A DNA stretch of 61,308 nucleotides from Seison nebaliae (GCA_023231475.1 JALJEE010002077.1:1-61308), one strand, 5' to 3'. Shown: positions 16-59,310, counted from the stretch's first letter. Program-made: numbers and translations. Notes: generated by a model from the sequence alone, not told the origin.

Positions 16-1475
16 AATATTGATAGATGCGTTTAAGAAGCAGAAAAATTGTATGAAAGTGATTCAGCATAAGATTTATTATAATAAGAATGGAGCAGTT
101 TTAGATGAAGATAAACCCAACGCTATTGTGAAATTTGAGGATTTGTGGAAGAATGGGAAATATTCTATCGTTTATTTTCAAATTTCTTTCCTATATTCAT
201 TTCTTATTAAATTAGTTTGATAGTTTATGTTTATATCAATTAGAACCGCGACAAAGGAAAAGTAAAGAGTTCAGATTAATTACCTCAGAACAAATAACTT
301 CTATCGACTTAATACGGTTTGTGGGAAGTCGAAAATTTGAAGATTTTACTTTGAGAACGATGTCATCAGGGATGTGGGGAATTTGTTCGTCGTCATTAAT
401 CGAAGATGATCCCGAACACAACAGTGATGTGGAATTGATAATTAATTCACAATTATCTGATTATTTTTCGAAGCATTTGGTTATCGGTGTTGACGAAGAA
501 GAGGAAGTGAATCATTTGATTGTGTGTGATCATTCTCTAGTCTCTACGAAAGAACTTCGACGTTTTAAGAAAAGTTTGTCAACTCGTATAATTAGAAAGA
601 GAGCACATTTATCCGTTCTCTGTAACCATAACAAATATTTCATGGAGAAAATATTTAATTTACCCGAATTCCTATTTATGTCAAATCCATTAATTAACGA
701 AACTGTTCATTGTCAGTTATTACAAGAGACAAGTAATTGTGGAATTAGAGATCGACCAAAAATTGCGTGTGAAATTAAATTACATTTAAGTTATTCACCA
801 CCATCTAATTCGTCATTAGGTACGTTGGTTATTTACAATTGTATCTCATCAAAAGCATTCATTAATTATCTCGATTTTGTTTATAATAAACGATTAATTA
901 TTGATGGATTAAATATGATTTATCCGAAATCATTCTATTACAAATCGAATATTCCATCGAAAGTTCTCGAAAACGACGTCATCCATTCTTCCACTAATAA
1001 TGATGATGATGATGTTGATGATGATGATGATGATGATGATGACTTTCCATTTGATAAGAATGATGAAGAAATTGGAGGAATTGACAATTTAAGACGATTA
1101 TTTCATGAAAGTAATGTGACAAAGAGAATTCGTCTACGAGCGAAAATTATGAAATTCTATAAAGATCATATCGTCAAATGTTGTGAACAAGTGTTTGATT
1201 TGTATATTCTATCTCTACAAGCACATGACGAATTGTGTCGTCTATTATGTTTCTGGATTCTCTTTGAACATGTTGATCAAGAAGCAAATCTTTGTCTCTA
1301 TCAACGTGCACTTCAACTCAAACGTTTCTTCAGTTTACAACAACTCATCAATTTACTCGAATGGAAACAGAATAGCCAATTCGAAAAAATTCTCAGTTCT
1401 CCCGAATTCTACAACATCAAAAACAACGGAATTCTCAAGAACATTATTCAACGATATTGTAATGAACGATTTTAA
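16..1475 (+). CDS. BTB/POZ-like domain protein, 5' end outside the window; exons 16-169 and 216-1475
   Basis: A phase-0 intron 170-215 (gtttat...attag) joins the 20..220 ORF frame to the 321..1475 frame. An acceptor tacag ends at 15. BTB-like segments KRAHLSVLCNHNKYF and FINYLDFVY are present, with a poly-Asp insert. Confidence 0.5.
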
Positions 1476-1696
1476 GAAAACTTTTTATTGTGAGATTGAA
1501 TATTTTTAAAGAAAATTTAAAAAAAAAACTTTTAACTAAAAAACAAAATCTTCTTTCATAGACAATTCTTTTTTAAATAAATTTAGTCGAGTCGTTTCTC
1601 CTCCAGAAATTAATGAAGAAAAGAAATTTTATTTGATATTTTTAGTAAATAAATTAGAAAATTAATTGTTAATTAATCATTAACTAAGAGAGTCTT

Positions 1697-2137: not shown

Positions 2138-2510
2138 ATGAGTGAATTGACAGCAGAACAATTGACAATGTGCCGCCATGTTTTCAGTCATTGGGATAGT
2201 GATTCGTCTGGATACATAAGTTAATTTTATTTTAATTGTTTCTTCAAATTCTGTTTTCTTTTTCTTCAAAATTAAATTACATTCTGATGAATAATTACAT
2301 GAATTCGTGACGATAAATAAAGAAAGAAAAGAATTAGAAGAAGCTTTATTACGACTAGCAGACAATGTTGGTAAAAAAGTGAATGTGGAAATGTTGGTAT
2401 CGGCATTCTTCGATATACACGATCGAAATGATGATGATAAGATAAGTTTAGAAGAATTTCTCACATTGTCCGGTCGACTATGCAAAGGTGAATGTGGTAT
2501 GAAGAACTGA
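2138..2510 (+). CDS. Small two-EF-hand calcium-binding protein; exons 2138-2219 and 2322-2510
   Basis: MSELTAEQLTMCRHVFSHW-DSDSSGYI, then intron 2220-2321 (gttaat...taaag) completes the 12-residue loop DSDSSGYIKRKE. The second loop is DRNDDDKISLEE. Confidence 0.8.
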
Positions 2511-4266: not shown

Positions 4267-5601
4267 TCACCACGGGTAACATGGATCTGGACACTTTCGC
4301 TTGTAACTGATCAGTTGATTGGTTTGGGCCGACATTATTACCGTATAAGTACTCAATTTATTGAGAACGGGTATGGTGGATAAGACATTATATAAAGAAG
4401 AATTATTGAACGTATCTCCCGATTGTTTCATACAAAATATTCCAGGAGTACGTCGATCATCGATAAACAACGGTTTCTTCCAATGATCATAATTGGTTTG
4501 GAGAAGAAAAGAAGAAGAATAATTGGCAGTACCGATATCGACTATGTCGCTGTGACCTTCTTCCGGCCATCTAGTGATAACAGCACCTTCTTTCGCATTA
4601 GATCCAGAAATCGTATAATAAATAGGAGCGACGATTTTGTCGGTGGCTAATTTGTGTTTAACTTCAGTATAATTCAAATCCATTTCTGCTAATTGTCTGG
4701 AAAGTAGAGTGTTCCACATGGCACTATGATCTCCCATCATCCACTGGATGATTCCTTTCATTCCACTCTCACTGAATTTATCAAATCGACTATTAACTGT
4801 CAAAGAGAAAATATCCTAAATAATTTGTAAATTATTTAAAAAGAGAAAAAAATTATAATTGAACATTCTTCATAATTGTCAAAGCGCCCACATAACCGAC
4901 GTATGAAACCATTTCATAAAAAACTTTACCATTCTTCACAAATTTCACATTTCTTAATAACGGTTTCAATTTCTCTTCAATCGACCACGTATGATTTCGC
5001 ACATCCCAACTGCTTACATTAATTATTTAATAATTAATAATAATAAAATTAAATTGATAATTTTAGGAAACTAATCGAACCCCATAAATATTCCAAAATC
5101 GAGATTTCTTGCATGAATAATCTCATTATCTTTCGTTTTGGCCACGATAGATGTGCAAAGAGCAGTCGCTTCATACATGATATTAAAGAGAACAATATCT
5201 CCCAATTCAATGTTGGTAGCATCACTAATACCGATCATTTCACTACGAAAAGGTTCGGGTAATTTATCAACAAAAATTGACTAAAATTACTTATTAAATT
5301 AAATTCTAAAATTCTTTCTAACTAAATCCCATTCAAGTAGAACAACGATCTCTTTGAAATATTTCGACCATTCTTCTAAATAATGTTTAAATTCATTTAT
5401 TAATGAGGCGATATCGTTAGACATTGGTGCTGCGATCGACCTCCAACGATCGATTGGTGCATCATCCAGATTGAGAACGACATCTTCAATCTTATCTTTA
5501 GCTATTGGCGGCCAAGCATCGTCCACACACTTAATTGATGCATTCGCCAAAGAAACAGACAAACAGGCAAACAAAATAAAAAGAATAACGCTTGAATTCA
5601 T
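4267..5601 (-). CDS. ASAH1: Acid ceramidase (Ntn hydrolase); introns 5281-5322, 5010-5080 and 4816-4864
   Basis: Signal peptide, nucleophile motif YEATAL-CTSIVA, HARNLDFG, QTNYDHW, DDRRTPG and C-terminal CPDPCYPW. Confidence 0.93.
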
Positions 5602-6053: not shown

Positions 6054-6741
6054 ATGAATTTTGAAGATGAAGTGTCTTCGGATTCAAGTAACTCGAATTC
6101 AATCGAATCAAAAGTGAATTATTTTAAGAATTCACCTCCACTTCTCACTTATCCACACAACATTTCACAAGCGAACGATGACACTCATTCTGAAATCAAG
6201 AACCCAACTAGAGAAATGGAACTGTTGAATGAGGAAATGAAAGATTTAAGAAATGTTCTCTATGAAAATTTCCAAAAATCGGCACTGATAATCACAGAAA
6301 TTTATAAGAAAAATAACGTACCCTACTCTCAATTCCAAGAGGCGGCTACCGCCATTGCTACTTTATACACAGGTTAATATTCTTCTCTTGAACACTTTTC
6401 CTTTTATTCAATGAGATTTATGCTGTTCAGGAGGAGCGAACGCATTAGCCGAAGCGCTGGAGAAAGGAAAACGTCTCGGTGAATTAAAACACAGATTAAA
6501 GCACAACCCAATTACTCATTCTCGTGGACGGAAAAAGAAACTATGTAAGAATGTTAATCTTAATTCAATCATTTTTTTCAATAATTTATCTCCAATTCAG
6601 TTCATCAATTCCCCAATGAAAGTCAGAGCTGCTCCCAAACGACATCTGAGTATGACGGACACCTTCGACAAAGCGGTGAGCGATTGTACAAAGAACAGAT
6701 GGGATTGTTACAGTCAAATGAGAAAGAGAATGAAAAGATAA
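6054..6741 (+). CDS. HAPSTR1: HAPSTR1/C16orf72 (DUF4588)-like protein; introns 6373-6430 and probably 6553-6600
   Basis: The duplicated motif LYENFQKSALIITEIYK / YSQFQEAATAIATLY resembles the FQNSATAVAQLYK / FQNAATAVTNLYK repeats of C16orf72 (from memory). The C-terminus RKRMKR* is basic. The second donor is ambiguous. Confidence 0.65.
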
Positions 6742-15678: not shown

Positions 15679-18600
15679 ATGGATGTTTATTGTTGGGGCA
15701 GTAATTCGGATTATCAATTAGGATTGGGTGGTGTTGAAGAAATGAAAATTAAACAACCGACACTCAACGATTTTCTCGCTAATATTATGAATGTTCATTC
15801 GATAATATTGAAGTCCATATGTTGTGGTAGTAAACATTCCATGTTCTTATTTGACGACGGATCAGTATATACATGTGGATCGAATGAATATGGTCAATTA
15901 GGTCGTGATGGTCCGTCGTCTAAACCTTGTTCGCTTTTTTCTTTCGTTAATTTATTGAAATTTGCTTTTATTTTGAAGTTATCGTTTCTGGATTTATTGA
16001 ACCATTTTTAAAAGAGAAAAATGGAAAACCACCATTCATCAAACAGATAGCTGCATCGAAATATGGATCATTTGCACTCACATATAATGGTTGCATATTC
16101 CAATGGGGATCATTAGATACTTATCGTAGTGGAGAGAATCATCATCAACAAATTCCTACGTTCATTTTTATTCGATTTTTTTTTTTTTTTGATTTGATTT
16201 TTTTTTTCAGTTTACTTTGTGGCCATTCTCAATGGAATGAGAACAACGCACAAACAACAACAACAACATCAAACGATAAGGAGAAGAATGGAATGATGAC
16301 AAAAGATATTATGATTTCTATTAGTCATTTGAGTGCTGGTGATGCTCATCTGATATGTTTGAGTGATAATGGTAAATTATATGGAATGGGATCGAATTCA
16401 CACGGACAATTAGGTACTGGTGACACGAAGAATCGAGAGATTTGTACTCCAATCGAATCCTTATCATTATTGCCGATTGAAATGATTGCATGTGGTGCTC
16501 GTCATTCGATGATATTAACAACTTCTGGAAAAGTTTTCGCTTTCGGTTCCAATCAACATGGTCAATTGGGAATCGGTAATTGTGAAGATAAAATTTGGCC
16601 TATCAAAGTCAAATCGTTAGAGAAAGAGATTATCATAAAAATCGAATGTGGCGCTACTCATAGTATGGCTCTCAATCGTAATGGAGAATTGTTCACTTTC
16701 GGTTATGGAGCTGATGGTATTTTGGGTCATGGTAATACTCACAGTTCTCAATTACCTCAAATGATAAAGAATAAATATGAAATTGTGGATTGTGTTGGTG
16801 GGAATCTCCATTCAGCATTTGTTGCCAAACGAAAGAATGATATTGAACTTTATGTTGTTGGTTCGAATGAGAATGGCCAATTGGGTCTCGGTAGTGATCA
16901 TACGAATCGTTTAAATTTCAGAATTTAATGAAAATTTTTAAATTCTTTTTCTTCTTCTTTCTAATTAGCCACTAGGAAAGAAGAGAAACATCCAAAAGTT
17001 TTGTTCAGTAATCGTAGAGAAGAATTTATGAGAAGTGAAAGTGTGATCGGATTTCGTCAGGAGAAACGTCTACGAAGTTCCAAACCTGGTTCATTTATCT
17101 GGCGAATATTCTCAGCATTCCATCAGTCATTCCTTGTGATGACTAAACAATATTCTTTATATAACGCCATTGATGAATTGAAAGTGTATGTGAATTTGAT
17201 TGATGAGAAATTAATAAAGAAATTTGTGAAATCGAAAGAAATTGACAATTTCGCCTTGATCTTCTCCTCTGTCGAATGTATCAACAATAGTTTTCTGGAG
17301 AAGTTTTCCTTTTTCCTTCTTTCTATTGATATATCTTATTGTTGTTGTTAGACGAATCGATAGGAAACCGATCACTAAACTTAATCATGGAATTGATCTA
17401 CAATTAGCGGAAAGATTAACATTCCTTCTCGTTGATTGTGATAATGATAAATTGAATGAAGTTTCTTCTAATAAAATATTTCTATTTAATTTCTATCTTC
17501 TCGTGACAGTTATCAGCTTGGTTGACGAAAGCATGCAATAATATATCATCATCTCCACCTGATTTGGAAGCATTACGAATATTTCTCATCTTACCATTAT
17601 TTCCAGTGATGTCAGATGGAAGTCGAGCGAATATTCTCCATCAATCCTTTGCCACAACATTCTCTCAACTCAACGAAAATGCGTTACGAATCATTCGATA
17701 TTGGTATGGAATGTTGGAACCAATTTATTATACGAAAATTATCTCACAATTCAAAAATGCCATTGTCTATATGTTGAATGCGAGGAAACCACCAGCACGA
17801 TATCCACAATCAGTCGTTCAAAAGACATTAGTGAAATGTCTTTCTCTTCTGAAAATTATTTATGAGATTAATCAGGAGACGAAATTAGTCTCTTATGACA
17901 CGTTCTACATATCGGAATTGAAGGATCTCATCAACGTTCCGGAAGATTATGGAAATTGGCTCAATTCCATCAAAATGAACGAGAATATTTTCAGTTTTTG
18001 TCAATTCTCTTTCGTATTCGATGCTGCACATAAATCATTAATAATTCAAGGTGATGCTCATATTCAAATGCATAACATGATCGGACAAGCCATTATTCGA
18101 AGTCCCAATTACATTGAAGCAGAACAAGCTTTTCTCATTCTCTATGTGAGTCGAGAGAATATCGTACAGGATACAATTACTCAATTGGCGAAACATCCGG
18201 CAGAGAATTTGAAGAAACCGTTACATGTAGCTTTTCGAGGAGAAGAAGCATTTGATGCAGGGGGTGTTCGAAAAGAATTCTTCCTTTTATTGATGCAAGA
18301 TCTCGTCGATCCCAAATATGGAATGTTCCATTGTTTAGAGAAGAATCATTGTTTATGGTTCATTGATGTGACATTCGAGACATCGGCCATGTTCGAACTC
18401 ATCGGAACAACATGTGGATTGGCAATTTATAATTCGATGATTATTCATTTACCATTTCCTTTAGCACTTTATAAGAAGTTGTTGAAGAAATCGATAATTT
18501 TGAAAGATATCAAAGATTTGTCAACTACTCTTTATTCCAGTTTCAATCATATTCTCAATTACGATAATAAGAACGATGATTTTGTGGATGTGCTCAATTT

Positions 18601-19309
18601 GACATATGAAGTCGTCCGTGAACGATTTGGTGCCATAGAAACGATATCGTTGATTGATGGGAAAGGATCAACGACTAATAGTCAACGAGATGTAAAATAT
18701 GAAGATCGACAAGAATATATTGATCTATATATCGATTATCTCTTCAATAAATCAGTAAAGGAGAATTATGAAGCATTCGAACGTGGATTCAAAAGAGTTT
18801 GTTCGGCCGATCATATTCTCAATTTATTTCAACCAAATGAATTGATGAGTCTCGTTGTTGGTAACGAGAATTTCGATTGGAAACTATTCGAGAAATGTTG
18901 TGAATATGATGGCGGTTATACGGAACAGTCGACAACAATCATTCATTTCTGGAATGTTTTCCGATCATTAACCTTAGCAGAAAAGAAGAATTTCCTTCGT
19001 TCATTTTTCCTTTCTCAAATGTTAAAGTTCCAATTTCGTTTTACCTTTCAGTTTTCCTTACAGGCAGTGATCGATTACCAATTTATGGAATGAAAAATTA
19101 TAAGGTTCCGAAATTTGTTCTTAATGATTTTTTATTACAAAATTCATTTATAGATAAAAATCATGAAAACTGGAACATCTGATGATCATTTGCCAGTTGC
19201 ACATACTTGTGTCAATCAACTCGATCTTCCAGACTATGAAACAGAAGAGAAATTAAAGAACAAATTATTGACAGCAATTTCATATCATCAAGGATTCGCT
19301 CTGGTCTAA
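15679..19309 (+). CDS. HERC4: Small HERC E3 ubiquitin ligase (RCC1-like repeats plus HECT); 7 introns: 15929-15978, 16160-16210, 16909-16968, 17303-17351, 17461-17509, 18999-19051, 19105-19153
   Basis: RCC1 repeats ([30 protein letters not shown]) and HECT motifs [24 protein letters not shown] and catalytic [14 protein letters not shown]. Ends QGFALV*. Confidence 0.9.
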
Positions 19310-26920: not shown

Positions 26921-27133
26921 ATGGGTGAAACAGAAATACCTCCAGAAGTTCGAAAGAATTTGGTTGGATTCCAAAAATATTTCAATTCGTGGACAACTCA
27001 AGGAAGATTGAATGTTAATTTTATTTTAAACTTTTTAATTATTTTATTATTGTAGATTGTACACGCCACATTGGGACTATCAGCTGCAACAATTTTATAT
27101 TTCACCGTTTTCCGACGATCATCGAAAAAATGA
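26921..27133 (+). CDS. ATP5MK: ATP synthase membrane subunit k/DAPIT (USMG5); intron 27014-27055; not in the ORF track
   Basis: MGETEIPPEVRKNLVGFQKYFNSWTTQGRLN/IVHATLGLSAATILYFTVFRRSSKK* matches the G..KYFNS.T..GR.N...AT.G DAPIT motif plus one TM helix. Confidence 0.9.
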
Positions 27134-27881: not shown

Positions 27882-29795
27882 ATGAAATTTCAAATAACAA
27901 TCGTTTGTCTTCTCTTGAACATTCTAGCGAGTTGTCTTTATCTTCTTAATTGGAATGTAATTTTAAATGAATTCCAGTTTATTGTTCGAATGAGAAACGA
28001 CATGAATATATGGAGAAGCATCGACATGAACATCATAAACGAGAAAAGGTAACTGCCGATCTGAACAAGATTCGAGAACAATTTCAGGAGAATGATAAGA
28101 GAGAAGGAAAACATCCGAAAAATGTTCGATTAATTGGACGAGCACTAAATGAGTTGAGTGATTTGGAGAGAATTTACAGAGAAATAAATGAAGAGAAGAA
28201 TGAAGAGAAACGTGAAGAGAACGAGGTAGATGAACCATCGTTACCTGGAGAAGATGTCCCCAAAAAGGAGAAACGACGGGAACGTCGAAAACAACATTTG
28301 GCGAAAAGAGCAATGGAAGAACTTCATGAATTAGAGAGAATGTTTAGGGAAATTCAAGTTGATAACAATTTGTCTGATTCAGAAATTGAATCGGCGAAAA
28401 GAGAAGCATTAGAATTGAATGAACCATCAGTACCAATTGATACTATAGCTCGACACTACGAGAATAGTAAACGAGGTTAACCATTTAAATATTTCGAAAA
28501 AATTCATATTTTCATCTTTAAATATTTCTTCTTTTAGCTGTCGCTTGTCCGAAAGATGATCAAATACCGAAATCTTGTTTCTTTGCCATACCCAGCGTAC
28601 AATGTAAAGACAGCCGTTTCAAAGCTAACTGCCCAACCGTTTGTGGCACGGACTGTTCATTCTCATTAGCTGAATCGAAAATTCCAAATCAGAAGAATTG
28701 TCCATCCGAATATAAATTACTTAATAGATACACATACATGAAATATAATCAGACACATACCGCTTGTCTACCTAAAAGTTCGAAGTACAAAAGTCAAGCA
28801 ATGACTGATGCTACAAAGAAGGAGATCATCGATTATCATAATAAAATCCGAAAACAGGTTTCACCTCATTCGACTGATATGCAAGAAATGGTATGGGATG
28901 AAGATCTCGCTAAAATTGCTGCCGTTCATTCTACTCAATGTAAATTATATCATGATTGTAATGATTGTCGAGCAACAATTACTAAAGATAGAGGAGTCAT
29001 TTTACCAGGACAGAATGGTGCTTCAGGATATCCCGAATGGGCGAAAGCTATGGCTGGTTGGGCGAGTGAAGTTCAATATTGGAAATTTGGAACTGGTGCA
29101 ATTGCTGGAAAGGATTGGCATAATATTGGTCATTATACACAAGTTCAGAATAAATACTCTTATTTTTTTTAATTGTTCATTAATATTTGATAGATGATCT
29201 TCGCCGATTCCACACGTGTCGGTTGTGCCATGAGCTCATGTGATGGACGACCATCGAAAGTTTATTATTGTAATTATGAGAAATTGTTTGTTTTCTTCTA
29301 AAAATTTTATTTTGTAAATGTTTCAAATATTTTAGTCAAGAAGGTGTTGCAACACCATATTTCGATGGGGAGAAATGTGAAGATTGTGAAAGTAATTGTG
29401 GAGCCGATATCTGCCAATGTAATGGAAAGACATGTGTTCATGGATTTCTGGATTTGGAAGCATGTGAATGTGAATGTGATGATGGATGGTCTGGAGAGAC
29501 GTGTTCAAAATTCCGTTGTGGTGCCGATTTCTGTATGCACCGAGGAATGCCAAATGGCGATTGTAAATGTATGTGCAGTGGTCAAACAACTGGAGCGAAA
29601 TGCGAGAAATGTTACTAAATTTATTTTATTCAATTTTAAACTTTTAATAATAATTTTTCAGTTAACTGTGACAAGAAGGATGCTTCAACATGTAAATTGA
29701 CTGAGACGGAAAAGACGAATGGTGTCGCACCGAAATTCTCGAACGCTTGCATTCATATGACGGCAATGTGCGGACATTTTTGTGGTAAGTGCTGA
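27882..29795 (+). CDS. Secreted CAP/SCP (venom-allergen-like) protein with propeptide, ShKT-like and EGF-like Cys-rich domains; introns 27931-27977, 28476-28537, 29143-29193, 29286-29335, 29611-29661
   Basis: Signal peptide; CAP motifs HNKIR, MVWDEDLA, GHYTQ/MIFADSTRVGCA and YYCNY; ShKT-like ends CPTVCGTDC and MCGHFCGKC. Confidence 0.85.
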
Positions 29796-31636: not shown

Positions 31637-34157
31637 TCAATGTTTCGACTGTTTAACCATTTCAAGAAGTGTCGGATGATTGCTCGCTAAAATTAACTTA
31701 TACTCCGTTTGAATTTGTCTTCGACCATCGGCTAATGCTTGACTATAACATTTCTGCTTTTTTGCCCCAACATCTCCTTTTGTCGAAATATATTTTTCTC
31801 TTATAAATTTCGCATTGGCCTATAGTTAATTCGAATTAGATCAAATATCTCAAATAAAAGAAACAAGAGAACTTTGAAATCGCGCAATTTCATCGGATCA
31901 CAATATTCGGCCGGTATTGGAGAGTCGGTTGTAAGGAATTTCAGGTTGTTCCTTCTTGCTTCCTTTTCTTTCTCCACATCCGCCGGCTTTTTTGCAGATT
32001 GTGATTTAGATAATCCTGAAGGTGCTCCTATTTTTTTTGAAATCGGAGGTTTCCTTATGGGCAATTGGGACAATTTTCGTCCACGCTCAGATATTGGTTT
32101 CCCTAATTGTGAAGTCGATTTTCTTACTTGAGATGGCTGTTTTCGAAAGTTAGAAGGTGACATTCCAAGTCTAGATCTCGATGTTCCCAGTTGAGATGTC
32201 GGTTTCCCCATTTGGGATATCGGTTTTCCCAGCTGAGACGTCGGTCTCCCTCGTTGAGATACAGATCCTCCTAGTTGTGATGTCGGTCTCCCTCTTTGAG
32301 TTGCAGATCCTCCTAGTTGAGATGTCGGTCTCCTTCGTTGAGATGCAGATCCTCCTAATTGAGATTGTGGTCCTTTCCGTGGAGACATTGATGTTCTAAG
32401 TCGAGATGCAGTTCGTGCTCCAAGTTGAGACATCGGTTTCCCAAACTTAGATGATGTCTTTTCCAATTGAGATGGTCCTCTTATAGAAAAAGATGTCCTA
32501 CTTCCAAACTGTGAATTTTTTCGAATCGAATCTGAATAAAATTTCTTATTGGTATCGAAAGACGGCTTCAAACTTGCATTGCCAATGACAAGTGAAGTTG
32601 TATTTCTCGTACTAGATTTTGTAGAATTTCGACTTACCGGTTTGGCTGTACTTTTCATGGTACTACTATAATCCTTCGTTCGCAGATCAGACTTTGATAC
32701 ATTTATGGACACTTTAGAATATTTCGTCCCCTTATTTTTACTCGAATCGATGGATTCTCTTTGTTCATTCCTTTTATCTTCTGCCGGTTCTTTAGTTTTC
32801 ATTTTCTTTTTGTCGTCGTCAATCTTCTGTTTAACATCATCTGGTTTAGGACTATTAGTGGAAATAGAGTCAATATCGGTCTCTTCACTGAAATTCTCTA
32901 TATAACTAAGACTATGCTTTTTGGACTTTCCACGTCCATAGCCCATGATCGATAACGTTCTTCTTGTTGATTTTTCACTTCGGGCAAGAGTGCTAACACT
33001 CTCCTTTGCAATTATCTAAGAAATTTGTATTAGGTTATATTTTCAGAGTGATTAACATTATTGATCAACGGATTGCGTTTCATCGTATCATCTTCATAAT
33101 ACAAATCTCCTAGTGCACTTAGTGCTGTAATACGTGCTTCGGGATCAAGTTTCAAACAAGAAAAAATTAATTTTGACACATTTCCTAATGGTCTCAAATA
33201 CTCATTCACCGATTTACCACTTGTTAAATCAAATTTTAGAGCATGAATCAAATTTGTGTTTCTCAAATTCTTTTGCATGTGAACAGGTAACGGTCCTGTG
33301 ACAAATAAATAAAATATTTATAATTCTTAATAATTACACTTAAATAATGATGAACCGAATATTTTGAGAATTTGATAAATATGATCGATTGCTGATGTGG
33401 CCTCTATCAGATATTTCGAGGTACATAATCGATAGACTATGATACCCATTGCCCAGATATCGATCTCACTGAAAATCTTAATAAATTTATTTATTATTCT
33501 GAAAAGAAGAACCTTCCGTATCGATAAACGCCAACTAGAACTTCAGGTGCTCGATACATACGTTCCGTAACATATTCCGTTAGAAATCCTTCACTTCCTT
33601 TTCTGGAATAATACAATCCACTCAACTTCACTAATTTATCGGGAAACATAAATATGTTTGTACAAGTGACATTCCGATGCATTATCTGAATATTATGATA
33701 AATGATTAAATTATGAAACGATTTGAATGAAAATGAAAATTATTAAAAATTAATAATTTAACTAACACCATTTTCATGTAGATATCCCAAAGCAAGAAAT
33801 AATTGATAACTAATCATACGACAATCCAATTCAGAGAAATCAATTGTCCCTTGACAATCTTTATACAATTCCTCCAATGTTCTATGAGGTAATTCGAGAA
33901 TAAGATACAACATATTATTCTCAATAAAAGAGTCGAGTAATTTTTGGATATTTCGATGATTTATTTCCTTAAAGAAACTTCACGATAACGACAATAAGAG
34001 AAGAAACTTGCATAATTCCGATATTACCTTGATCGGCCTCGAAAGCCAATTCAAATTCGTAAATTTCTACTAAAAGTTCAGTTGTCAAATTAACACCACG
34101 AGATCGGAGAACCGTTTCCTTAATTTTCTCATCACTAGTAATCTTATAATTGAACAT
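31637..34157 (-). CDS. CDKL/CMGC-like pseudokinase with long basic Ser-rich tail; introns 33968-34007, 33686-33766, 33469-33512, 33296-33355, 33016-33056, 31820-31872
   Basis: The spliced frame gives NHRNIQKLLD, YLHENG/IMHRNV, TEYVTERMYRAPEVLVG, IDIWAMG and CLKLDPEARITA, and joins in frame to the 31801..32946 ORF. Confidence 0.8.
32180..32375 (-). repeat. Coding 42-bp (14-aa) tandem repeat SQLGGS(A/V)xQRGRPT
   Basis: agatcctcct recurs at 32263, 32305 and 32347, a period of 42. Confidence 0.9.
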
Positions 34158-34508: not shown

Positions 34509-37500
34509 CTATTCCATGTCCATGGGTTTATCATCAATTTTTGAGAGAGTATTCGGAGAAGAGTTTTGTTCTGTGCATGTTATATCGTCGTCCAACACAA
34601 TATTGCAGTTGGTAGAATGGCAGACGTTAAGCATATGTGCTGCCATTTCACTTCCAGTTTGATTTCGATAGAAACATGTGCCACATTCGAGAGTTACACC
34701 ATAATCGATGAGTGGTTGTGTCTCAACATATTTGCAATGTTTCTTCGTTGACCATCGACTACTCTTTGTTGATTTATTGACAATCAATGCATTATCAGTT
34801 TTCGATAAAACATAATTGGGATTCTTATCTAATAATTCACGATAATGACGAGGAGATAATTCACTTTGATGAGATCTTGGCAAATGATGAGCTCTCATGT
34901 GATGAGTAAAAGCATTGAGACATCTTGTTCGATATCGAATATAACCGTTTGTCTTACAATAAGGACATGAAAATAAATATCTGAAAAAATGAGAAAGAAT
35001 AGAGAAAAAGAGAAAAAATTAAATAAACTTAATATGATCATAATTGAGTGCATCCATATTACATTCGATACAAACGAATAATTTTTCAATTTGCTTATCA
35101 GCTACAGTTCGAATTGATGATCGTTGAAATGCTTTCGATTTCCTTTCTCTTCGACGTTGTTTCACATGGGTATCGAATTCTTGAGATGTCGATTGATCTG
35201 TCCCATCATCTTCTACCAAGAAATGACTCTTCTCTTCATCATTCAATAATTGATACAACGAATACATATCTAATTGAGAGTCCTCTAAAACTCCATTTCT
35301 ATTATTAACAGAAATTCTTAATTCTTCATGATTCTCCTCCAAATCTTCACAACGATTCCCCACTAATTTAAAAGAATTTGAAAAATATTTTTTTCGATAA
35401 GAACAAACCTTTGAATCTCCTATCAAGAGAAAATGAATCAAGAATAGCAGAATAAACTCTCATGTGCACTTGAGAATACCAAGCATCGATCTTGAAATCG
35501 ACCGTAAATTTTCTGATAATTTGACTGAATGTTTCCTTCCGTTGCTGACGACGTAAATCCAATTTAAGTTGTTTAACTATTTGTCCTGTTTCAATATCAA
35601 TCGATCGGTCTACTCTTTTCACCGTACCGATTAACATTAATTTGATCTTTTTGAATTGTTGATCATCAATCGAATATTCTAAAGGTAGACGACACCAATG
35701 TTGTAGGACCATATGAGATAGAAGAGCATTAACTGCATCGCCACATCTATAAACGTTCGATACCGGACTCGTAAATTTCATACAGAATAAACAAATTAAT
35801 CTTGGAGAATTATCGTGTTTCAACATCCAATGATAAAGAATATCATCATAGAATGGAGTGTAAAATCGACGAGTAGCAGTTGGAGTGATCATTCTTGGAT
35901 TTTCACACGAAGCACAACAATAAAGGGCGGGAGGCGGTTCACAATTCTCATTCAAACGAACTTTCAATTCATAATCGGCACGATTGGAATCTTTGTGATA
36001 TTCTCTCAAATGTATCAACAATTCTTCTCGATGATAACCATGGAAACGATGGAAATCGGAACCATAAACTTTTCTGTCATAAATTAATTGAACTTTCTTA
36101 TCTGTAAACAGATTGGGAGCATTAAGACATAAACGACAATAGAAATATGCATCTTTTCGATCAGCTGTATTCACATAATAATATTCATCACAATCTGATC
36201 TTAATGGTGGTATGTCAATGAGATCTTTCGATTCCAATTGATTATATAAATCTTTCGTCAAAGGTAAATGTTCCGCAGAATGCATCATATCTTCATGAAG
36301 AATTCGAACGAGTGGCGATTTAAATTGTAATCCACAAAAACATGTTCTTAATAAATTCATGGAATCATTCAATTTTACATCCTTAATTGGCATAACAGGA
36401 AAGAATTGAGGCAATTTCACTTCGTACGTCTCATCCAAATGTTTCTCGATCTTTTCTTTAATATCGTTGATAGAATTGAATAAAATATTCATTTCATTTC
36501 CGTCTTCATTCACATCGTTCGAATATTCCTCAAAGAATTTCAACAACAAATGATGAGAGAGATATGATATTCGTTTTCTCTTTAATTCATCGAAAATATA
36601 TTTAATTTTCTTATCGTTAGAAGAAGGAAGAAAATGTTTCATGAGAACATGTTCAGTTAATCGAATACTTCCTATCACCGTCTCACCACAACTACTACAA
36701 TTGAATTTGGGAAGTTTTTGTGTTTGTAACGATTGAGTATAAATGTATGAGCGAGTATAATATAATTTGAGATCTTCAACAAAATTTTGATGTGGTGCAC
36801 TTAATGCCAAGAATGTTGCATGAAGTTCTCGAAGTTGTGCATCATGGTCCATTGGATCGACTGATGAATTGAATGGAATTCGATCTTCTTTCACTTTCCT
36901 ATCTGTTTCCATTTCATCATCTTTTTCATCCTCTGTTTTAATGTGATGATTTGTTGATAATTTCTCATCATTCTTTATATCGACATCATGCTCACTCATC
37001 AATGCATCTATTTCACTATAGGAAGCATTACTCTTTGTTCTTTTATCCGTCATTCCCATTAATTCATCAACTTCATCACAATGATCGTCATGGATCGATG
37101 AATAATTATCTCCTCCACTATTGGAGAGTCGATCCATTGATTGAAATTTCCTTTTAAGTGTTCGACTTAAAATGTGAGAAGTAGCATAATTCGAATCATC
37201 ATCATCGATAATCTCATTCATTCGAATAATGGAATTTGGTTGATTATCATAAAATAATTTCTGATCTTCACTCACTTCCTCCACTTCACAATCCATATTA
37301 AGATTAACATATTTATCATAAAAATCATCATCGATCTCTTCCATGCGATAAATGGATATTGGTGTTTTCCGTTTCTTCAATTGATGTTCCGGTCCCATAT
37401 GATTAGAGAGATAGGCAGCCGAACTGGATGCAAATCCAACATTCTCATAAATATCCGTTTCTTCTGTTTCCTCTTCTCGTTTTCTATTGAGACTTTCCAA

Positions 37501-38859: not shown

Positions 38860-38862
<3 letters not shown>

Positions 38863-41284
38863 ATTCATAGAGACACATAGATATATTGATGTCAATATGT
38901 TATAATGTAAATTCCATAAAACCGAAAGGATTCTTGTATTCACGTCAAACAATTTATTATATTCATTCATTTGAATAGAATGAAATTAAAAACTTACTCT
39001 CTCTATCTTTCTGAAAGACATGTAGACAGTACGATGTTTTGTCGTTCTCTTCTGAGGTAAATGGAAATCAGTTGACATAAAAATATTTTCTATAATTTTC
39101 CTGTGAAATGATGCTTTCTTGATTTCTCTTTACTTCTTTTAATTTACCGTATTCAGAATCAGTGTTGTTCATTTATGTTGTTTAAGGCATCAGTATTCGA
39201 TTTCACCTTAAACTCATCAACAACAGAAGGACTGATAATTGAATCATTGACACTTTCATCCAATTTCTATCCTTCCAATTGCCCAGCCAATTCAACACTT
39301 CTCTTCTCTTTTACTAATGAGCAACTCCGAAGTAATTGAAAGAGGATTGACGTGCAATTTGCATTTCTATCTAAACCGTGTCAATGACAACTTCATAGGG
39401 GAAGGAGCAATTGTAAATGACATGACAGTTCGATGTAAGTGTGAATGCGTCGAACATTTTTTATAATGAGCAACATTGAGATGGACAATTAAGTGGTGGG
39501 ACGGTCAAAAGGAAATGTTAAGCTTTCCATCATCAATAAGTGTTGTTGTTGAAATTTCGAAAAGCGGTTCACGTTGTTGATTCACGGAGGAAGAAATTAT
39601 TCATAATTTATTGATGTGCATCATTTAGATATAAGATCGAGCAAAAATCGATTTATGCCACATAATTTTCAGTATATCATTCACTCAACGAATTCAGTAG
39701 AGTGAATGAAACAACTATTTTTGTCTTCACAATTCGCTTATCTACATCTGTTCAATGAAATGTTCCATTCTTTCGTCTTACATCACCATGTGGTCCTTAT
39801 GTATGCATCATTATTCATATATTCATCATCCACACACGCACACACACATATACACACACAAACACACACAAAAAAGCACACTCACTAACAGATAGGCTCA
39901 AACTCGCCGACATAGAAAAAATAGAGAAGCACAAACGATCTCCATGTACATGGTGAATGTGAGAAAGTAATTATATTGAACGTCATAATATTACGTGTAG
40001 ATGGAATTATTATATTTATCCATCTTCCTCCTTCAACTGCCTGCCCAATTGTCGTGTATTGAGGTTCTGAAAATTTATAAATGAAATTTCCTTTTTTTTA
40101 TTGAAAGATTTTTTTTCGAATAATTTTTTATAATTTCCGTCTATGGAACATCTGCAGTTGCTGTCCGCGTACATGTACAGACAACGCACACTGCTACATA
40201 TAGACAGTTACGGAACATTATATAAATTATGGGAAGAATGTTTCTCTTTCTGAGAAAATTTTGTATTTTCTTCTGCATATTCCTCCATCATTATTCATCT
40301 CATCATTCATCAACACTTTTAGTTCTTCACATGCACCACACATACACACACACGTACATGTACACATATATGTGTACATGGAAACTAACGAACATAGTCA
40401 TCAGTTTTCTTATTTCGATTACAACTCTCCCAAATTCGTTTAGAAGATCCGACTCCTCATCTCGAACGAACATTGCTCATGTTGCGGTTGATTGTCCTCA
40501 AGACAATGCTCTTCTTTCTCTCTTATGCGATAGAGCCATCATCGATAGGATGATGATGGAAGATGTCATCATCCAAATGTCTTCCATATTCGTATCATCT
40601 ATCCATTTCTATCTATCAAACGTCATATTTATTCGAATAACTAAACGTCGGACTAAAGTCGACGAATGGGAATTGAGTTGTCTCTCAACGAGAATCGTCT
40701 CTCACGTTTGATGGGAAGTGAACGAATAGTCCCGTTAATCTGAATGTAGTGAGGAGGGAGTGGTGCCAGATTAAAAGAGAGAAATTGTTTTTTTTTGAAT
40801 AAAATGTAAAAATTTACCGATTCTTCTCTTCATTTTAATGATTTGAAACCTTTAATTAATTGGAACTTTCTTCATTTGTCATTTATTCTCAACTAATTAA
40901 TTTTTCTCTTATTTTAATCTTTAATCAACCATCTGTTTCTCAATCATCTTTTCCAAATGGTTAAGGCACAAAGGTTATTATCATTTATCTTTATTTCAAC
41001 TTTATTTTCGAGAGTGAAGGACATTTTACTTCAGTTATTGATCCGACATTTCATTTATTCGTCCATTAGTCACCCTTATTGAATCGTATCGTTTTTAATA
41101 ATTGTTTTTTTCTCCTTTTTTCAGCGTAAAACAGAAAGCGAATTTGCAGATCATATATGAAGGTGGCATCTATTGTCGAGGAAGACGACGAAGTAAGAGA
41201 TTAAAACGACAAATTTCGTTATGTCGACGAATTGAACGTTACGCGAATACCATAAGTGGTTGGGTCATAGAAGTTGTTGTAGAT

Positions 41285-42606
<1,322 letters not shown>

Positions 42607-43039: not shown

Positions 43040-43070
<31 letters not shown>

Positions 43071-45119: not shown

Positions 45120-45133
45120 GTTGTTATAGCAAC
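45120..45133. promoter_or_regulatory. Candidate RFX X-box GTTGTTATAGCAAC
   Basis: Matches the 14-nt consensus GTHNYY-AT-RRNAAC exactly. Confidence 0.35.
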
Positions 45134-54800: not shown

Positions 54801-57364
54801 CGATATTAAAGAAGATGATGATGAATAAATATTTCTCCCCAAATTATTGCAGTTGCCGCTCAGACGATTCGAATGAAAACACAGGAGACAGGTTTTAGTA
54901 GGGAAGCGAACTCTCATGTTGTTCGATGGAGCGGATAATAAGATAGTTATTATAATAATCCGAAATTTATGAAACTGAGAAAATAATATTCTTCCGAATC
55001 TTTTATTATTGAAGTATAATTAGTTTGACGTTGGCAAACATATCGCATATGACAGGAGCGGCTACTTTCTTTTATCTATTTCCGTTATTCGATTAAACTC
55101 CCAACACCAATAACAAATACTATCGGCAAATACTACTTAATCTACTTAGTGTGACAATGAATAAAAGTTGATGAGAAGATACTATCATATTAGACAGCTA
55201 TTCATCTCAATCCATTTGCCTTTGGTGTTACTAACTAATTGAAATGGAAGTAATATTAGAATAGCGACGAGTAACCTCGGGAACTCGAAGGTAATGTGAT
55301 CTTAATTGATAAGAAGCATTCATCGCATCAATAACATTTTATTTTCATTCATTTATCTCTATACCACGATTCTGTTACCATCACACACAAAAAATGGACC
55401 ATGTGTCTCGTCCTATGTTTACGCCGTCAGTTGTGTATGTATGAGAAGGTATTGTATCGATTGTTTTATGATGACGATAATGGTCTGCAACATACGTGTC
55501 GTCTTCGAAATTTAATGAAAGGAAGATACTTGATGAAGATACAGAGGAATTAAAGAAAACAAATAAATGGGCAACTGAATACCATACTCTTTTAATCGAG
55601 GTCGACATATGTGTCCATTGTTGGATGTCATTTTATTTATTTAGTGTCATCATTTTCATGTTCTAATGAAAATAAATCTGGTAATATTGTTGTTTTAATT
55701 TTTTTCTATCCAGCTTCCAACGACTAAGAAGAAGAAGAAGAAGAACAATAACTAAATTAAATCTTCTTCATTCATTTAATATTTGTATGGAATTTTATTT
55801 TTCCAATTCATTGGAAGTATATAGAGATTGGAATCATGTTGATGAAGAGCTTTAGATGATAGAGTCAGTGAAAAGGATCTTTATGTTTTGATTGTCATTC
55901 AATCCGGTAGCATTCTCAGGGTATGATCTTTCCAAAATGAAATGTTATCGGAACCAAAAATGAGAAGTCTGGGACACTTCTTCGAATTTCAATCAACTCT
56001 ATTGTTGATTCAACGTAATCGTTGTTTATATTGTTTTTCATAAAAATTCTTTTATTCAATATCTTCCCCCTTAGGAGATTGTCATCTACGTACGTCTATT
56101 GCTACTTATACGTATCATATCGTAAAATAATAAACATTCTTATTGTGTATATTAGAGTAGACTATTAATTGATTTACTTAATTAATTTTCTCACTAAACA
56201 ATTATTATAATTCCATTGGATCGATGTGATAATTGGGAAAATTAATTCTTTAACAATCATCTTCACTTTAATCAATCATGTGGATAACTATAAAATTCTC
56301 CAGTTATTCTCAACTGAATATCGTACTCATATTCCCCACTTTCTTTCATTGAATTCTCCAAACAAACTTGAATTAAAGACGTTTCATCTCAACAAACGAA
56401 AGTTTAGTTAGTGCGGTAGTAGTTAGCTTTGTAAGGTGGATTGGATTGAAAGATGTTCGAAATTCCTTCTTTCATTTCTTCAAACAATCGGAAAGAAATG
56501 AAAACAGTAGAAATACAAAATCTTCCCATCGCCCGTCAATCATTGTCGTAACATACAGTATCTCTTTTGTCTTCAAGAGAACAATTTCATTCTCTCATTC
56601 TCTCATTCATAAGCACGGAAACAAATGGAAACAAATAAAAGAGGGAAACTACGTGCGAAATTTTAATATTTTAAACGGAAATGAGACATTCTTTTATTCA
56701 TTATTCTTCTCTATTTCGTCATTCATCTTTCCCTTAAGAAATCTATCAAAGTAGAGAACTCTTTATGTATATGACTATCTGGGCCATATCTGTTTCCACG
56801 TCTATAACTCTATCAAAGTTATCATAATTTTTTATAACTATTAATTTATTCAAGTTTTCCTATTCATATATGTTTGATTATGGAAAAGGAAATGGAAATA
56901 ATGACAACAACTCATGCCAGCATTTGGTTTCCATTGAATGCGAGAATTGTTGCTGTTTCCGTTTTCCATCGATAATAATGTAACTTTAGAATAATAGTAT
57001 TTGTCAAATTGCTAGTATTTACCTGACATCTGCTCTAATTTAGGACTATTGTCGAATGATCTTGTTTACCCTATTTCCTTTGAAACATTTCCGTTCACTA
57101 ATCTCAAGTTCAGTTCGAAATGTTGCATTCACCATCTCTTTGCTTCCAAACAAGAATACTCCATTAATTATAATCGAGTTATTGTTTATTGATAATCGGA
57201 ATATTAACTTTTCATCTGTTCGTCCTTCCCATACTCTAATAACCATTTGACGATCTTTCATCGACTATATATGAATTTCATTTTCTCCCATTTATTCCTT
57301 CATCTAATTTCTCATATTTCTTCTTATTCTCTCAGATTTTTCATTAATTGTTCATGAATCAGTC

Positions 57365-59310
57365 ATGAATACTTTCAGATTAACAATTGTTGTCTTTTCT
57401 ATATTATTATCAAATTTTAACGAATGTACTCGACCTACCAAAAACATCAAGGCCATATATGGTCAATCCATTAAATTGAGATGTAACATCGAAGAAATGG
57501 AATCAAATGCTCATGTCACTTGGATAAGAAAAGAGACGAACGAAATCATTTCAATTGACAGAACTATCCATCAATCGACTCCGATGCAATTGAGGAAGGA
57601 AAACGTCCGAAGACGAAATCGTCGAGAAGTCTATCAAGGCAAATATCAAATCGACCATTCATATATGACCGAATGGCATCTCATCATCAATCACGTAACA
57701 GAAGACGACAGTGGAATTTACATTTGTAAATTATCCACCGATCCTTTAGGTCAGAAACAACGTCGTACCGTCCAATCCCATTCCGATGGAATGGATGAAA
57801 AAATCAATAAAAATATTCAAAGTCAATCAGAAATTGATTTTATCGAACAATTATTCGATGATACAAACTCAGAAGAACATCAAGTTCAAAATGTGAAGGA
57901 AAATGGGGAAAGATCGCGTCGTTTCCAACACAACGTGTTTGAGAAGATTGAACAAATTTTCAACTTAATCATTCTAGTTCCACCCAGAATATTGACACCA
58001 GTTCAAATGAAAATTTCCAGAATTACTTCATTGTCTCCTTCACCATCTTCATCATCGACGGATGTCATTTATCAAAATGAAATGTTCTCTCTCAGTTCAT
58101 CAGATGTCATTTATGAGAAAGATCTCCGTTTATCTGATCCTCCCAATCCCGAGTTATTGAAATGTGTCGCCGATGGAATGCCAACACCTAAGATCAATTG
58201 GTTTGTTGTTCAATTATATTCCAACAATCGAACTAGTGAAAGACAATTAAATTTCAATGGAAATTCAATTAATGTCGGAAACGTCCGTAACGTGATTCGT
58301 TCACTGTTGAAGAACAATAAGAAGATTGGAGATGAGAATGGTGTGATTACCATATTTATTTGTGTGGCCAACAATGAAATTCAACCAACAGCTTCAATGA
58401 AATTCCGAATCAATCAATTGTTCTCTCCAAAACTTTCTTATTTGAGTAACAGTCTAATTCAACTAAAGAATGATGGAATGGAAGAGAATAGCGTCCGAAT
58501 GGAATGTGAAATCGTTTCTAACCCAACACCCTCTGTAATTCTGTGGAAGAAGAATAACAAAGTAATATATCGAAAACAATTATTTCCCTCTTTTCAAAGG
58601 GGAAGTGAAACGAATTTAAATTATAAAAATAATCGGTACATATTTACAAATTACGAGAAACGACAATCAAACTTCGATTTATCAAAAAAAATTATTTCTT
58701 CTTTAAAAATTCCCGTTAGTTTTTCCTTTCTTCAATTCAGAAATTAATTTTTTCAATACAGAAACCATCAAAAACTGATATCGGGAAGTATAAATGTATC
58801 ATCGTAAATTCGGTTGGAAAATCGCATTTAATGTTCGAAATAGAAAATGTACAAAACGAAAAACGATTATCCGTTAAATTAAACGACGAGTTACCGAAAG
58901 CACTAATTTATCCCGTTAAAATGGAAACCAAGAAAAAAGAAGAAAGCATCAAAACACAACCAAAGAAATCGAATTTGAAATCTGTTCAAATTTGGCATCG
59001 GCAAAAATTTAAGAAACCGATTGAAGCAATAGTAGAATTGACGAGGAAACGACTTCTTCGAAACGACAATTATTATTCGGGAAATAATGTGAATGAGAAC
59101 AATCATCGAAGTAAGCCGTACGTGAATGGTTTGAGGTATGAACCGGCCAGATGGTATCCTCACCAAATGGATAAGGAACGAAGATATCGAACTGAAAAAA
59201 ATTATTATAGATTTGATCATTCATCAGGAAGTGAGATGATAAGAACTAATTTCATTTCATTATTATTTATATTCTTTATTTATTCGATCATTTCCATAAG
59301 TATTTGTTAA
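57365..59310 (+). CDS. Three-Ig-domain cell-surface protein, IgLON/DIP/lachesin-like, probably GPI-anchored; intron 58715-58761
   Basis: Signal peptide; Ig1 C...VTW...WHLII..V...DSGIYIC; Ig2 CVADGMPTPKINW...CVANN; Ig3 CEIVSNP...W...DIGKYKC (restored by splicing); hydrophobic C-terminus with no cytoplasmic tail. Confidence 0.75.

What the first reader, a model, noticed from the sequence alone, without database searches (positions are those of the whole stretch)
170..58761. Every reconstructed intron starts GTT: candidate rewired 5' splice-site code
Seen: all 37 coding introns I reconstructed, in 13 genes on both strands, begin GTT. Examples are GNAQ gttcaa, gttcta, gttaga, gttcat, gttcat; HERC4 gttcgc, gttcat, gtttaa, gttttc, gtttct, gttcat, gttccg; PRPS gttttc, gtttgt; ASAH1 gttaga, gttcga, gttcaa. 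None begins GTA or GTG. Only 9 of 37 have G at +5, and +4 to +6 look nearly free. Most boundaries are fixed by protein homology and reading frame. Established: the animal U2-type consensus is GT(A/G)AGT, read by the U1 5' end (ACUUAC) and the U6 ACAGA box, and +3T is normally a minority. Inference: this lineage changed donor recognition, through variant U1/U6 snRNAs or altered U1C/LUC7/SNRNP27K/METTL16/PRP8. AT richness alone would not remove GTA. I do not know whether this has been reported for this organism.
Basis: partly seen in the sequence, partly recalled or inferred. Interest (0 to 1): 0.95.

Follow-up and report, generated by a model that had tools for sequence, protein, structure and literature searches.

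The report
An animal whose introns start GTT
In this stretch of DNA from the rotifer relative Seison nebaliae the introns that can be pinned down begin with GTT instead of the GTA or GTG usual in animals, so its splicing machinery has likely been rewired, most likely by a matching change in the U1 recognition RNA that has not yet been looked at.

Summary
Confirmed at DNA level. Three proteins matching the window at 100% are named Seison nebaliae. All 14 introns fixed by alignment to other species' proteins begin GTT. So do 8 fixed by family motifs and 12 by frame. Three more are ambiguous, with GTT the best overall parse. A parser started with a canonical GTRAGT prior still called 29 of 36 GTT. 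GTT is only 54% of GT words inside these introns, so composition does not explain it. The five GNAQ introns sit at ancestral positions, and bdelloid-like GNAQ genes use GTA at 34 of 41 introns. A one-base shifted U1 register is not supported. Best model: in-place change of the donor, read by a co-evolved U1 5' end as in Entamoeba (GUUUGU with ACAAAC). U1, U6 and junction reads were not examined. Ten paper searches found no animal case. The scan noted GTT donors before, in protists (Bonamia, foraminifers). New variant of a known kind.

The parts
41594..41637 (+). GNAQ intron, GTTCAA..TAG, 44 nt, ancestral position 101.0
   Evidence: homology-fixed
41796..41854 (+). GNAQ intron, GTTCTA..AAG, 59 nt, position 153.2
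   Evidence: homology-fixed, only frame-keeping pair
42120..42165 (+). GNAQ intron, GTTAGA..TAG, 46 nt, position 239.0
   Evidence: homology-fixed
42320..42371 (+). GNAQ intron, GTTCAT..TAG, 52 nt, position 291.1
   Evidence: homology-fixed
42480..42523 (+). GNAQ intron, GTTCAT..TAG, 44 nt, position 327.1
   Evidence: homology-fixed; best GTG alternative -20 bits
3415..3466 (-). PRPS intron, GTTTTC..CAG, 52 nt
   Evidence: homology-fixed; best GTA alternative -39.7 bits
2616..2672 (-). PRPS intron, GTTTGT..TAG, 57 nt
   Evidence: homology-fixed
16160..16210 (+). HERC4-like intron 2, GTTCAT, 51 nt
   Evidence: only frame-keeping pair
17303..17351 (+). HERC4-like intron 4, GTTTTC, 49 nt
   Evidence: no frame-keeping GTA/GTG within 45 nt
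17461..17509 (+). HERC4-like intron 5, GTTTCT, 49 nt
   Evidence: best GTG alternative -15.2 bits
18999..19051 (+). HERC4-like intron 6, GTTCAT, 53 nt
   Evidence: homology-fixed
19105..19153 (+). HERC4-like intron 7, GTTCCG, 49 nt
   Evidence: best GTG alternative -68 bits
5010..5080 (-). ASAH1 intron 2, GTTCGA, 71 nt (a second GTT at 5071 would add 3 residues)
   Evidence: register against acid ceramidase
4816..4864 (-). ASAH1 intron 3, GTTCAA, 49 nt
   Evidence: register against acid ceramidase
5281..5322 (-). ASAH1 intron 1, GTTAGA, 42 nt
   Evidence: frame; no GTA/GTG alternative
6373..6430 (+). TAPR1-like (HAPSTR1) intron 1, GTTAAT, 58 nt
   Evidence: frame; no GTA/GTG alternative
27014..27055 (+). 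ATP synthase regulator (PF14960) intron, GTTAAT, 42 nt
29143..29193 (+). CAP-domain gene intron after GHYTQ, GTTCAG, 51 nt
   Evidence: motif register (family motif recalled); no alternative
33968..34007 (-). kinase intron, GTTTCT..AAG, 40 nt
33686..33766 (-). kinase intron, GTTAGT, 81 nt
   Evidence: motif register YLHENG|IMHRN
33469..33512 (-). kinase intron, GTTCTT, 44 nt
   Evidence: best GTA alternative -31 bits
33296..33355 (-). kinase intron, GTTCAT, 60 nt
   Evidence: best GTG alternative -20 bits
170..215 (+). intron of unnamed gene, GTTTAT, 46 nt
   Evidence: frame and composition only
2220..2322 (+). EF-hand gene intron, GTTAAT, about 103 nt (acceptor uncertain)
   Evidence: only donor that keeps the 12-residue EF loop
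27931..27977 (+). CAP gene intron, GTTGTC, 47 nt
   Evidence: frame only; GTA alternative -4.9 bits
28476..28537 (+). CAP gene intron, GTTAAC, 62 nt
   Evidence: frame only; GTA alternative -10 bits
29286..29335 (+). CAP gene intron, GTTTGT, 50 nt
   Evidence: frame only
29611..29661 (+). CAP gene intron, GTTACT, 51 nt
   Evidence: frame only
33016..33056 (-). kinase gene intron, GTTAAT, 41 nt
   Evidence: frame only; no alternative
31820..31872 (-). kinase gene intron, GTTCTC, 53 nt
   Evidence: frame only; no alternative
35363..35408 (-). intron of 34509-38010 gene, GTTTGT, 46 nt
   Evidence: frame only; no alternative
34981..35028 (-). intron of 34509-38010 gene, GTTTAT, 48 nt
   Evidence: frame only; no alternative
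40974..41124 (+). intron upstream of the conserved GNAQ start, GTTATT, 151 nt (probably 5' UTR)
   Evidence: present in deposited model P0126
58715..58761 (+). Ig-domain gene intron, GTTAGT, 47 nt
   Evidence: frame only; no alternative
15929..15978 (+). HERC4-like intron 1, GTTCGC, 50 nt (ambiguous; top homology parse is another GTT)
16909..16968 (+). HERC4-like intron 3, GTTTAA, 60 nt (ambiguous; GTAGTG 18 nt upstream competes)
6553..6600 (+). TAPR1-like intron 2, GTTAAT, 48 nt (ambiguous; GTAAGA at 6545 or read-through possible)

Best explanation
Seison nebaliae introns in this window are ordinary short GT-AG introns whose donor has changed in place to GTT(C/A/T)(A/G)T, and they are most likely read by a U1 snRNA whose 5' end has changed to match (predicted: A instead of U opposite +3). 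Shown: invariant +3T, enriched +4C and +5 purine, weak -1G, lengths of 40-62 nt in 33 of 36, T-rich interiors, normal AG ends, ancestral positions. Inferred: the major spliceosome removes them by intron definition, with length and T-richness supplying most of the information and GUU the fixed mark. Predicted: the U1 pairing segment ACUUAC reads ACUAAC or further changed (AUUAAC or AUGAAC would pair the two commonest hexamers, GUUAAU and GUUCAU). Inferred history: weak +5G arose earlier in rotifers; +3A to +3U then spread through old introns on the Seison line.
For: 14 of 14 homology-fixed and 34 of 34 unambiguous introns begin GTT. A parser with flat +3 gives 34 of 39 GTT; with a 20:1 prior for GTA over GTT it gives 29 of 36, and self-training ends at 35 of 39. 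All five GNAQ introns share position and phase with introns of bdelloid-like and other animal loci, where the donor is mostly GTA. +5 keeps the bdelloid-like pattern in the normal register (G 9 of 37 against 10 of 41, A commonest in both), so +3 and +4 changed in place. With canonical U1 the donors average 4.5 of 9 pairs, with an A opposite +3 5.5. 19 of 37 have neither -1G nor +5G. The one described lineage with fixed +3U, Entamoeba, has U1 ACAAAC (bioRxiv 10.1101/2022.06.08.495308, passages). Published transcript alignments for the species show spliced-out gaps of 39-67 nt (34 distinct gaps in the one part of 400 read), the same size class.
Against: U1 was not seen. In most lineages with atypical donors U1 is unchanged: 69 Saccharomycotina, Giardia, Trichomonas, Thecamonas and Mamiellales, and U1 and U6 are invariant across Saccharomycotina, though those are +4 changes. 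The gain in pair count from an A opposite +3 follows by construction. An unchanged U6 ACAGA box could accept +3U as a G-U pair (my reading of the pairing given). One contig, 37 introns, no junction reads. Three introns are ambiguous and four non-GTT parser calls were dropped on judgement. The control is one gene from a few related, unnamed organisms. No acanthocephalan was compared.
Confidence: 0.5

Rival explanations
1. The +3U rule is real but U1 keeps ACUUAC. The preference is imposed later or by proteins: the U6 ACAGA box (G opposite +3U) and Prp8 at transfer or catalysis, or a changed U1C, LUC7 or TIA-1-type U-rich binder, with U1 pairing reduced to little more than GU.
For: Most described atypical donors have unchanged U1 and U6. 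U1 pairing alone does not settle donor choice, and U6 can overrule it (PMC11732430, passages). -2A is enriched (23 of 37), which fits U5 loop 1. Entamoeba U1C is highly diverged.
Against: An invariant U-U mismatch in the middle of an already weak U1 helix (4.5 of 9 pairs) has no described precedent in what I read. The U6 partners +5G (9 of 37) and +4 are not conserved, which argues against a U6-led code. The protein losses described so far act on +4.
Confidence: 0.33
2. Canonical U1 binds all donors in the +1 shifted register, so that +3U pairs with the U1 base that normally reads +2 (Roca and Krainer type; recalled, and suggested by earlier scan notes on protists).
For: It would explain an invariant +3U with no snRNA change. 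+5 purine is enriched (26 of 37).
Against: It needs +4 purine and +6G: +4 purine is 13 of 37 (background level), +6G is 2 of 37, GTTRAG is 0 of 37. +6 and +7 fit the bdelloid-like profile in place better than shifted (log-likelihood -57 against -106 and -52 against -68); +4 and +5 do not discriminate.
Confidence: 0.07
3. No change in the machinery: +3 is unconstrained and T dominates through T-rich introns and TpA avoidance, plus small-sample luck or a biased reconstruction.
For: Intron interiors are 53% T, and GTT is the commonest GT word there (19 of 35). GTA is depleted in coding sequence (z=-8; Val GTA 16%).
Against: GTA, GTC and GTG make up 16 of 35 interior GT words but 0 of 34 unambiguous donors (P about 1e-9 at p=0.55; 5e-6 even at p=0.7). 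The method is not biased: on bdelloid-like loci it gives 50 of 82 GTA, and 38 of 66 GTA even with a GTT-biased donor model.
Confidence: 0.06
4. The introns are recent copies of a mobile element (introner) whose end happens to read GTT, or they are artefacts of gene modelling.
For: Uniform size and uniform start. The deposited PRPS model does contain one apparently false GTT..AG intron.
Against: All five GNAQ introns lie at ancestral positions and phases. The longest word shared by any two of 35 introns is 14 nt, within the shuffled range of 11-15. Most contain stops or shift the frame, so they must be removed.
Confidence: 0.04

Closest known systems
Entamoeba transformed donors GUUUGU(U) with co-evolved U1 ACAAAC (bioRxiv 10.1101/2022.06.08.495308; passages read; supplements not seen)
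   Same: +3U is near-invariant (96.9-98.5% GUUUGN there); GT-AG ends; AT-rich genome; +3 and +4 both changed in place.
   Different: Entamoeba is an intron-poor protist with a strict six-letter motif that keeps +5G. Seison is an animal with up to seven introns per gene in this window, a loose motif after +3, +4C commonest and +5G in only a quarter. The U1 change is shown there and only predicted here.
Mastigamoeba balamuthi U1 ACGUAC with GUGCGC donors (same preprint)
   Same: Precedent for +4C read by a G in U1.
   Different: +3 stays a purine.
+4U donor lineages (Saccharomycotina, Giardia, Trichomonas) and the METTL16/SNRNP27K link (PMC10581693, passages)
   Same: Genome-wide shift of a donor position.
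   Different: It concerns +4, with +3A kept and U1 and U6 unchanged.
Canonical animal U2-type donors in two classes, AG//GUNNN and NN//GURAG (PMC11732430, passages)
   Same: GT..AG ends, ancestral positions, -2A bias.
   Different: 0 of 37 fit GURAG; 19 of 37 have neither -1G nor +5G.
Bdelloid-like GNAQ introns from metagenome loci
   Same: Size class of about 50-60 nt, same positions, weak +5G with A commonest.
   Different: GTA 34, GTG 3, GTT 4 of 41. All four GTT donors read GTTTG, so there +3T comes with +5G; in Seison it does not.
+1 shifted-register 5' splice sites (Roca and Krainer 2009; recalled, not read)
   Same: GTT start.
   Different: The required +4 purine and +6G are absent.

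Membership tests
U2-type spliceosomal introns | GT..AG termini | tested here: met
   37 of 37 start GT; 36 of 36 with a placed acceptor end AG, -3 being T 18, C 15, A 3
U2-type spliceosomal introns | positions shared with U2 introns of relatives | tested here: met
   5 of 5 GNAQ introns
U2-type spliceosomal introns | purine at +3 (GTRAGT consensus) | tested here: not met
   0 of 37
U2-type spliceosomal introns | branch point motif | tested here: inconclusive
   YTRAY 8-35 nt from the end in 19 of 36, CTAAY in 3 of 36; no shuffle control was run
U2-type spliceosomal introns | removal shown in RNA at these coordinates | not tested
   no junction reads examined; only the species-level size class was seen
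U12-type (minor) introns | donor GTATCCTT or ATATCCTT (recalled) | tested here: not met
   no donor among 37 has +3A
Entamoeba-type transformed donor with co-evolved U1 | near-invariant +3U | tested here: met
   34 of 34 unambiguous introns
Entamoeba-type transformed donor with co-evolved U1 | strict GUUUGU hexamer | tested here: not met
   GTTTGT 3 of 37
Entamoeba-type transformed donor with co-evolved U1 | U1 5' end complementary to the new donor | not testable with these tools
   no genome held; no snRNA in the window
+1 shifted-register donors | GTT followed by RAGT (+4R, +5A, +6G) | tested here: not met
   GTTRAG 0 of 37, +6G 2 of 37
Introner-derived introns | sequence similarity between introns and new positions | tested here: not met
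   shared words within shuffle range; ancestral positions

The most novel reading that the evidence does not exclude
Seison is the first animal with a rewritten donor code. A mutated U1 5' end (AUGAAC- or AUUAAC-like) reads GUU(C/A)AU, thousands of ancestral introns switched +3 from purine to U, and neither the U5 (-1G) nor the U6 (+5G) class of donor survives. An intron-bearing animal would then have re-coded its splice sites in step with a core snRNA.
Probability: 0.4. Interest if true: 0.88.

Novelty: new variant of a known kind. Interest (0 to 1): 0.72.

Why it matters
The +3 purine of the donor and its U1 partner are among the most conserved features of animal splicing. The described case of a fixed +3U is an intron-poor protist with a strict motif. 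An animal with several introns per gene, an invariant +3U and little else conserved makes an open question testable: how a recognition RNA and thousands of its targets change together. Rotifers offer the intermediates, since bdelloid-like relatives already have weak +5G and a GTTTG minority class. It also matters for annotation, because tools that assume GTR donors will misplace exons in this species.

Tried and rejected
No whole genome is held, so U1, U6 and spliceosomal proteins could not be searched. Rfam finds no snRNA in the window at gathering score; the eight weak matches are below threshold. A U1 search of the records behind five control loci was not possible. The three deposited proteins are single-member clusters from NCBI only, so they add no transcript evidence; all 16 of their introns start GTT, but how the models were made is unknown to me, so I do not count them as independent. 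A homologue search for ASAH1 could not be made; solved structures fixed two junctions and gave no useful match for exon 1. Test for avoidance of GTT in coding sequence: uninformative, since GTA (z=-8.1) is more depleted than GTT (z=-4.4); AGGTT 5 against 15.7 expected (z=-3.1) with AGGTA undepleted is only a hint among 12 words tested. The GNAQ tree is the quick version and several forks are weak; it serves only to group loci with Rotaria. Rejected: shifted register, U12 type, introner origin, neutral composition, parser bias. Dropped parser calls: 4273 (past the end aligned to the last residue of acid ceramidase), 41069 (upstream of the conserved GNAQ start), 50079 (ORF without a Pfam match) and 59231 (251 nt, removes the stop of ORF 58720-59310). 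A search for structural papers on the +3 contact returned nothing.


Full report
Source. The window is a gene-dense, 32% GC eukaryotic contig. Homologue searches returned three proteins identical to window genes (PRPS, GNAQ, HERC4-like), each named Seison nebaliae and each on a contig of 61,308 bases. Seison is an epizoic member of the Rotifera-Acanthocephala clade (PMC8351084, abstract and passages). No whole genome is held and no RNA reads were examined, so the evidence below is DNA, protein homology and literature.

Checking the observation by homology. I built profiles from non-Seison relatives only (82 GNAQ, 48 PRPS, 16 HERC4). For each of 14 introns I listed every GT or GC donor and AG acceptor within 45 nt that keeps the frame, and scored the spliced protein. 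For 12 of 14 the GTT parse was best and a GTA/GTG alternative was absent (8 cases) or 15-68 bits worse (4 cases). HERC4 intron 1 had another GTT on top and a GTG at -3.8 bits. HERC4 intron 3 had a GTA alternative at +3.9 bits. Two ASAH1 junctions fall in exact register with solved acid ceramidase. That gives 14 homology-fixed introns, all GTT.

Checking it without homology. I wrote a small gene parser whose donor model can be set freely. With +3 flat it called 39 introns, 34 GTT and no GTA. With a canonical prior (A 60%, G 34%, T 3% at +3) it called 36, of which 29 GTT and 2 GTA. Self-training from that prior settled at 35 of 39 GTT. I dropped the four non-GTT calls on judgement (4273, 41069, 50079, 59231; reasons under Tried and rejected) and added two the parser missed (2672 and 2220). 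The result is 37 introns: 14 homology-fixed, 8 motif-fixed, 12 frame-only, 3 ambiguous. For 21 introns outside the homology-fixed set, 11 have no frame-keeping GTA/GTG donor within 45 nt and in 10 the best one scores 4.9-31 bits worse on composition and length. That model was trained on the same window, so this check is partly circular.

Chance. GTT makes up 19 of 35 GT words inside the introns and 46 of 105 other GT words near the donors. At p=0.55, 14 of 14 has P=2e-4, 22 of 22 P=2e-6 and 34 of 34 P=1.5e-9.

Anatomy of the signal (n=37). +3: T 37. +4: C 14, A 12, T 10, G 1. +5: A 17, G 9, T 7, C 4. +6: T 22. -1: G 12, A 12. -2: A 23. Against an interior of 53% T, 29% A, 12% C and 6% G, +4C (P=4e-5), +5 purine (P=2e-5) and +5G (P=3e-4) are enriched, so these positions are weakly constrained, not free. 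The commonest hexamers are GTTCAT and GTTAAT (5 each). 19 of 37 donors have neither -1G nor +5G. Lengths are 40-62 nt in 33 of 36. Acceptors are TAG 18, CAG 15, AAG 3. No strong branch motif stands out.

Comparison with relatives. A metagenome scan with the Seison GNAQ protein gave 74 loci. I aligned a polychaete GNAQ, with all +3 bases scored alike, to the window and to 24 of them (L052-L074 and L032); 22 of the 24 showed introns. Ten loci lie close to Rotaria sp. in a quick tree (seven group with it at moderate support, three sit in an open fork on very short branches; L062 and L066 are 99.5% and 96% identical to it). Four shorter loci were added because their intron pattern matches. These 14 give 41 distinct introns: GTA 34, GTG 3, GTT 4; +5G 10, +5A 30; +4C 0. 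All five Seison GNAQ introns share position and phase with them. At four positions the bdelloid-like donors are GTA or GTG in 26 of 26; at 291.1 four of seven are GTTTG. These are few related organisms and one gene, so the counts are not independent. Run on 13 of the control loci (48 kb with spacers, two of them near-duplicates), the parser returned 50 GTA and 14 GTT of 82, and 38 GTA and 20 GTT of 66 even with a GTT-biased donor. So the fixed +3T and the +4C are special to Seison among what I could compare, while weak +5G is shared.

RNA context. Additional file 2 of PMC8351084 maps transcripts of the species to its assembly. In the one part of 400 that I read, 34 distinct gaps of 39-67 nt are spliced out (my count). 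That matches the size class but says nothing on donor letters. The file is cut in storage, and unseen parts may bear on the junctions.

How it most likely works. U1 ACUUAC pairs with GUAAGU and U6 ACAGA with positions 2-6 (Entamoeba preprint). A fixed +3U faces a U in canonical U1, leaving on average 4.5 of 9 pairs. In Entamoeba, the one described lineage with fixed +3U, U1 reads ACAAAC. I therefore put a matching U1 change first (0.5), with intron definition by length and T-richness doing the rest (inferred). The main rival (0.33) keeps U1 canonical and lets U6, Prp8 or U1 proteins impose +3U; most atypical-donor lineages do keep U1 and U6 unchanged, though those are +4 changes. A +1 shifted register fails on +4 purine (13 of 37), +6G (2 of 37) and GTTRAG (0 of 37). 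Neutral composition and introner origin are disfavoured. I put the chance that the +3U rule holds genome-wide at about 0.9.

What is in print. Ten full-text searches found no report of GTT donors in Seison or any other animal; the library lacks most subscription papers. In PMC8351084 'intron' occurs twice and 'splice' once, none about donor sequence, and its two supplements have no hit for intron, splic, snRNA or spliceosom. PMC10125929 mentions only alternative lamin ends (passages and one supplement row). PMC10639083 lists Seison among its species (supplement passages only), so pan-eukaryote intron datasets include it and may show the pattern unremarked. For the Entamoeba preprint, PMC11732430, PMC10581693 and PMC12553114 I saw passages only. 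Roca and Krainer 2009, the U12 consensus, the U1 numbering and the kinase and CAP motifs are recalled. Earlier scan notes report GTT donors in Bonamia and shifted GTT classes in foraminifers and other protists; I did not check them, and none concerns this genome.

Verdict. It is a new variant of a known kind, apparently the first in an animal. Interest 0.72.

Noticed in passing
window 3519-3563 (-): The deposited PRPS model P0002 removes a 45-nt in-frame GTTCAT..TAG stretch that encodes 15 residues conserved in relatives. It is probably a false intron, or an exitron caused by the loose GTT signal.
   Followed up: partly
window 40957-41287 (+): The deposited GNAQ model P0126 has a 59-residue N-terminal extension through a 151-nt GTT intron. 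Relatives start at about MPNLCC (41285), so that intron is probably in the 5' UTR.
   Followed up: partly
L052-L055, L059-L063, L065, L066, L069, L070, L073: Bdelloid-like GNAQ donors read mostly GTAAAA or GTAAAT: +5A 30 of 41, +5G 10 of 41, -1G 27 of 41; all four GTT donors read GTTTG. This is itself a departure from GTRAGT and may point to a U1 or U6 change shared by rotifers.
   Followed up: partly
window coding sequence: Strong TpA avoidance: Val GTA 16% and Leu CTA 18%, against 37-61% A-ending codons in the other four-fold boxes; Arg CGA 61%.
   Followed up: no
window 26585-26752 and 26921-27133 (+): Two tiny adjacent genes for mitochondrial ATP synthase parts: epsilon chain (PF04627) and regulator (PF14960).
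   Followed up: partly
window 7861-11145 (+) and 19543-24483 (-): Long intronless genes, a SacI-domain phosphatase (1,095 aa) and a phosphatase of the PF22669 family (1,647 aa), beside genes with many short introns.
   Followed up: no
window about 38300-40900 and 43000-57300: Gene-poor stretches in an otherwise compact contig; the five ORFs there that I scanned have no Pfam match. An (AT)n hairpin at 38811-38880 gives only sub-threshold miRNA matches.
   Followed up: no
window 53-1475 (+): A predicted 459-residue two-exon gene with an acidic tract and no Pfam match.
   Followed up: no
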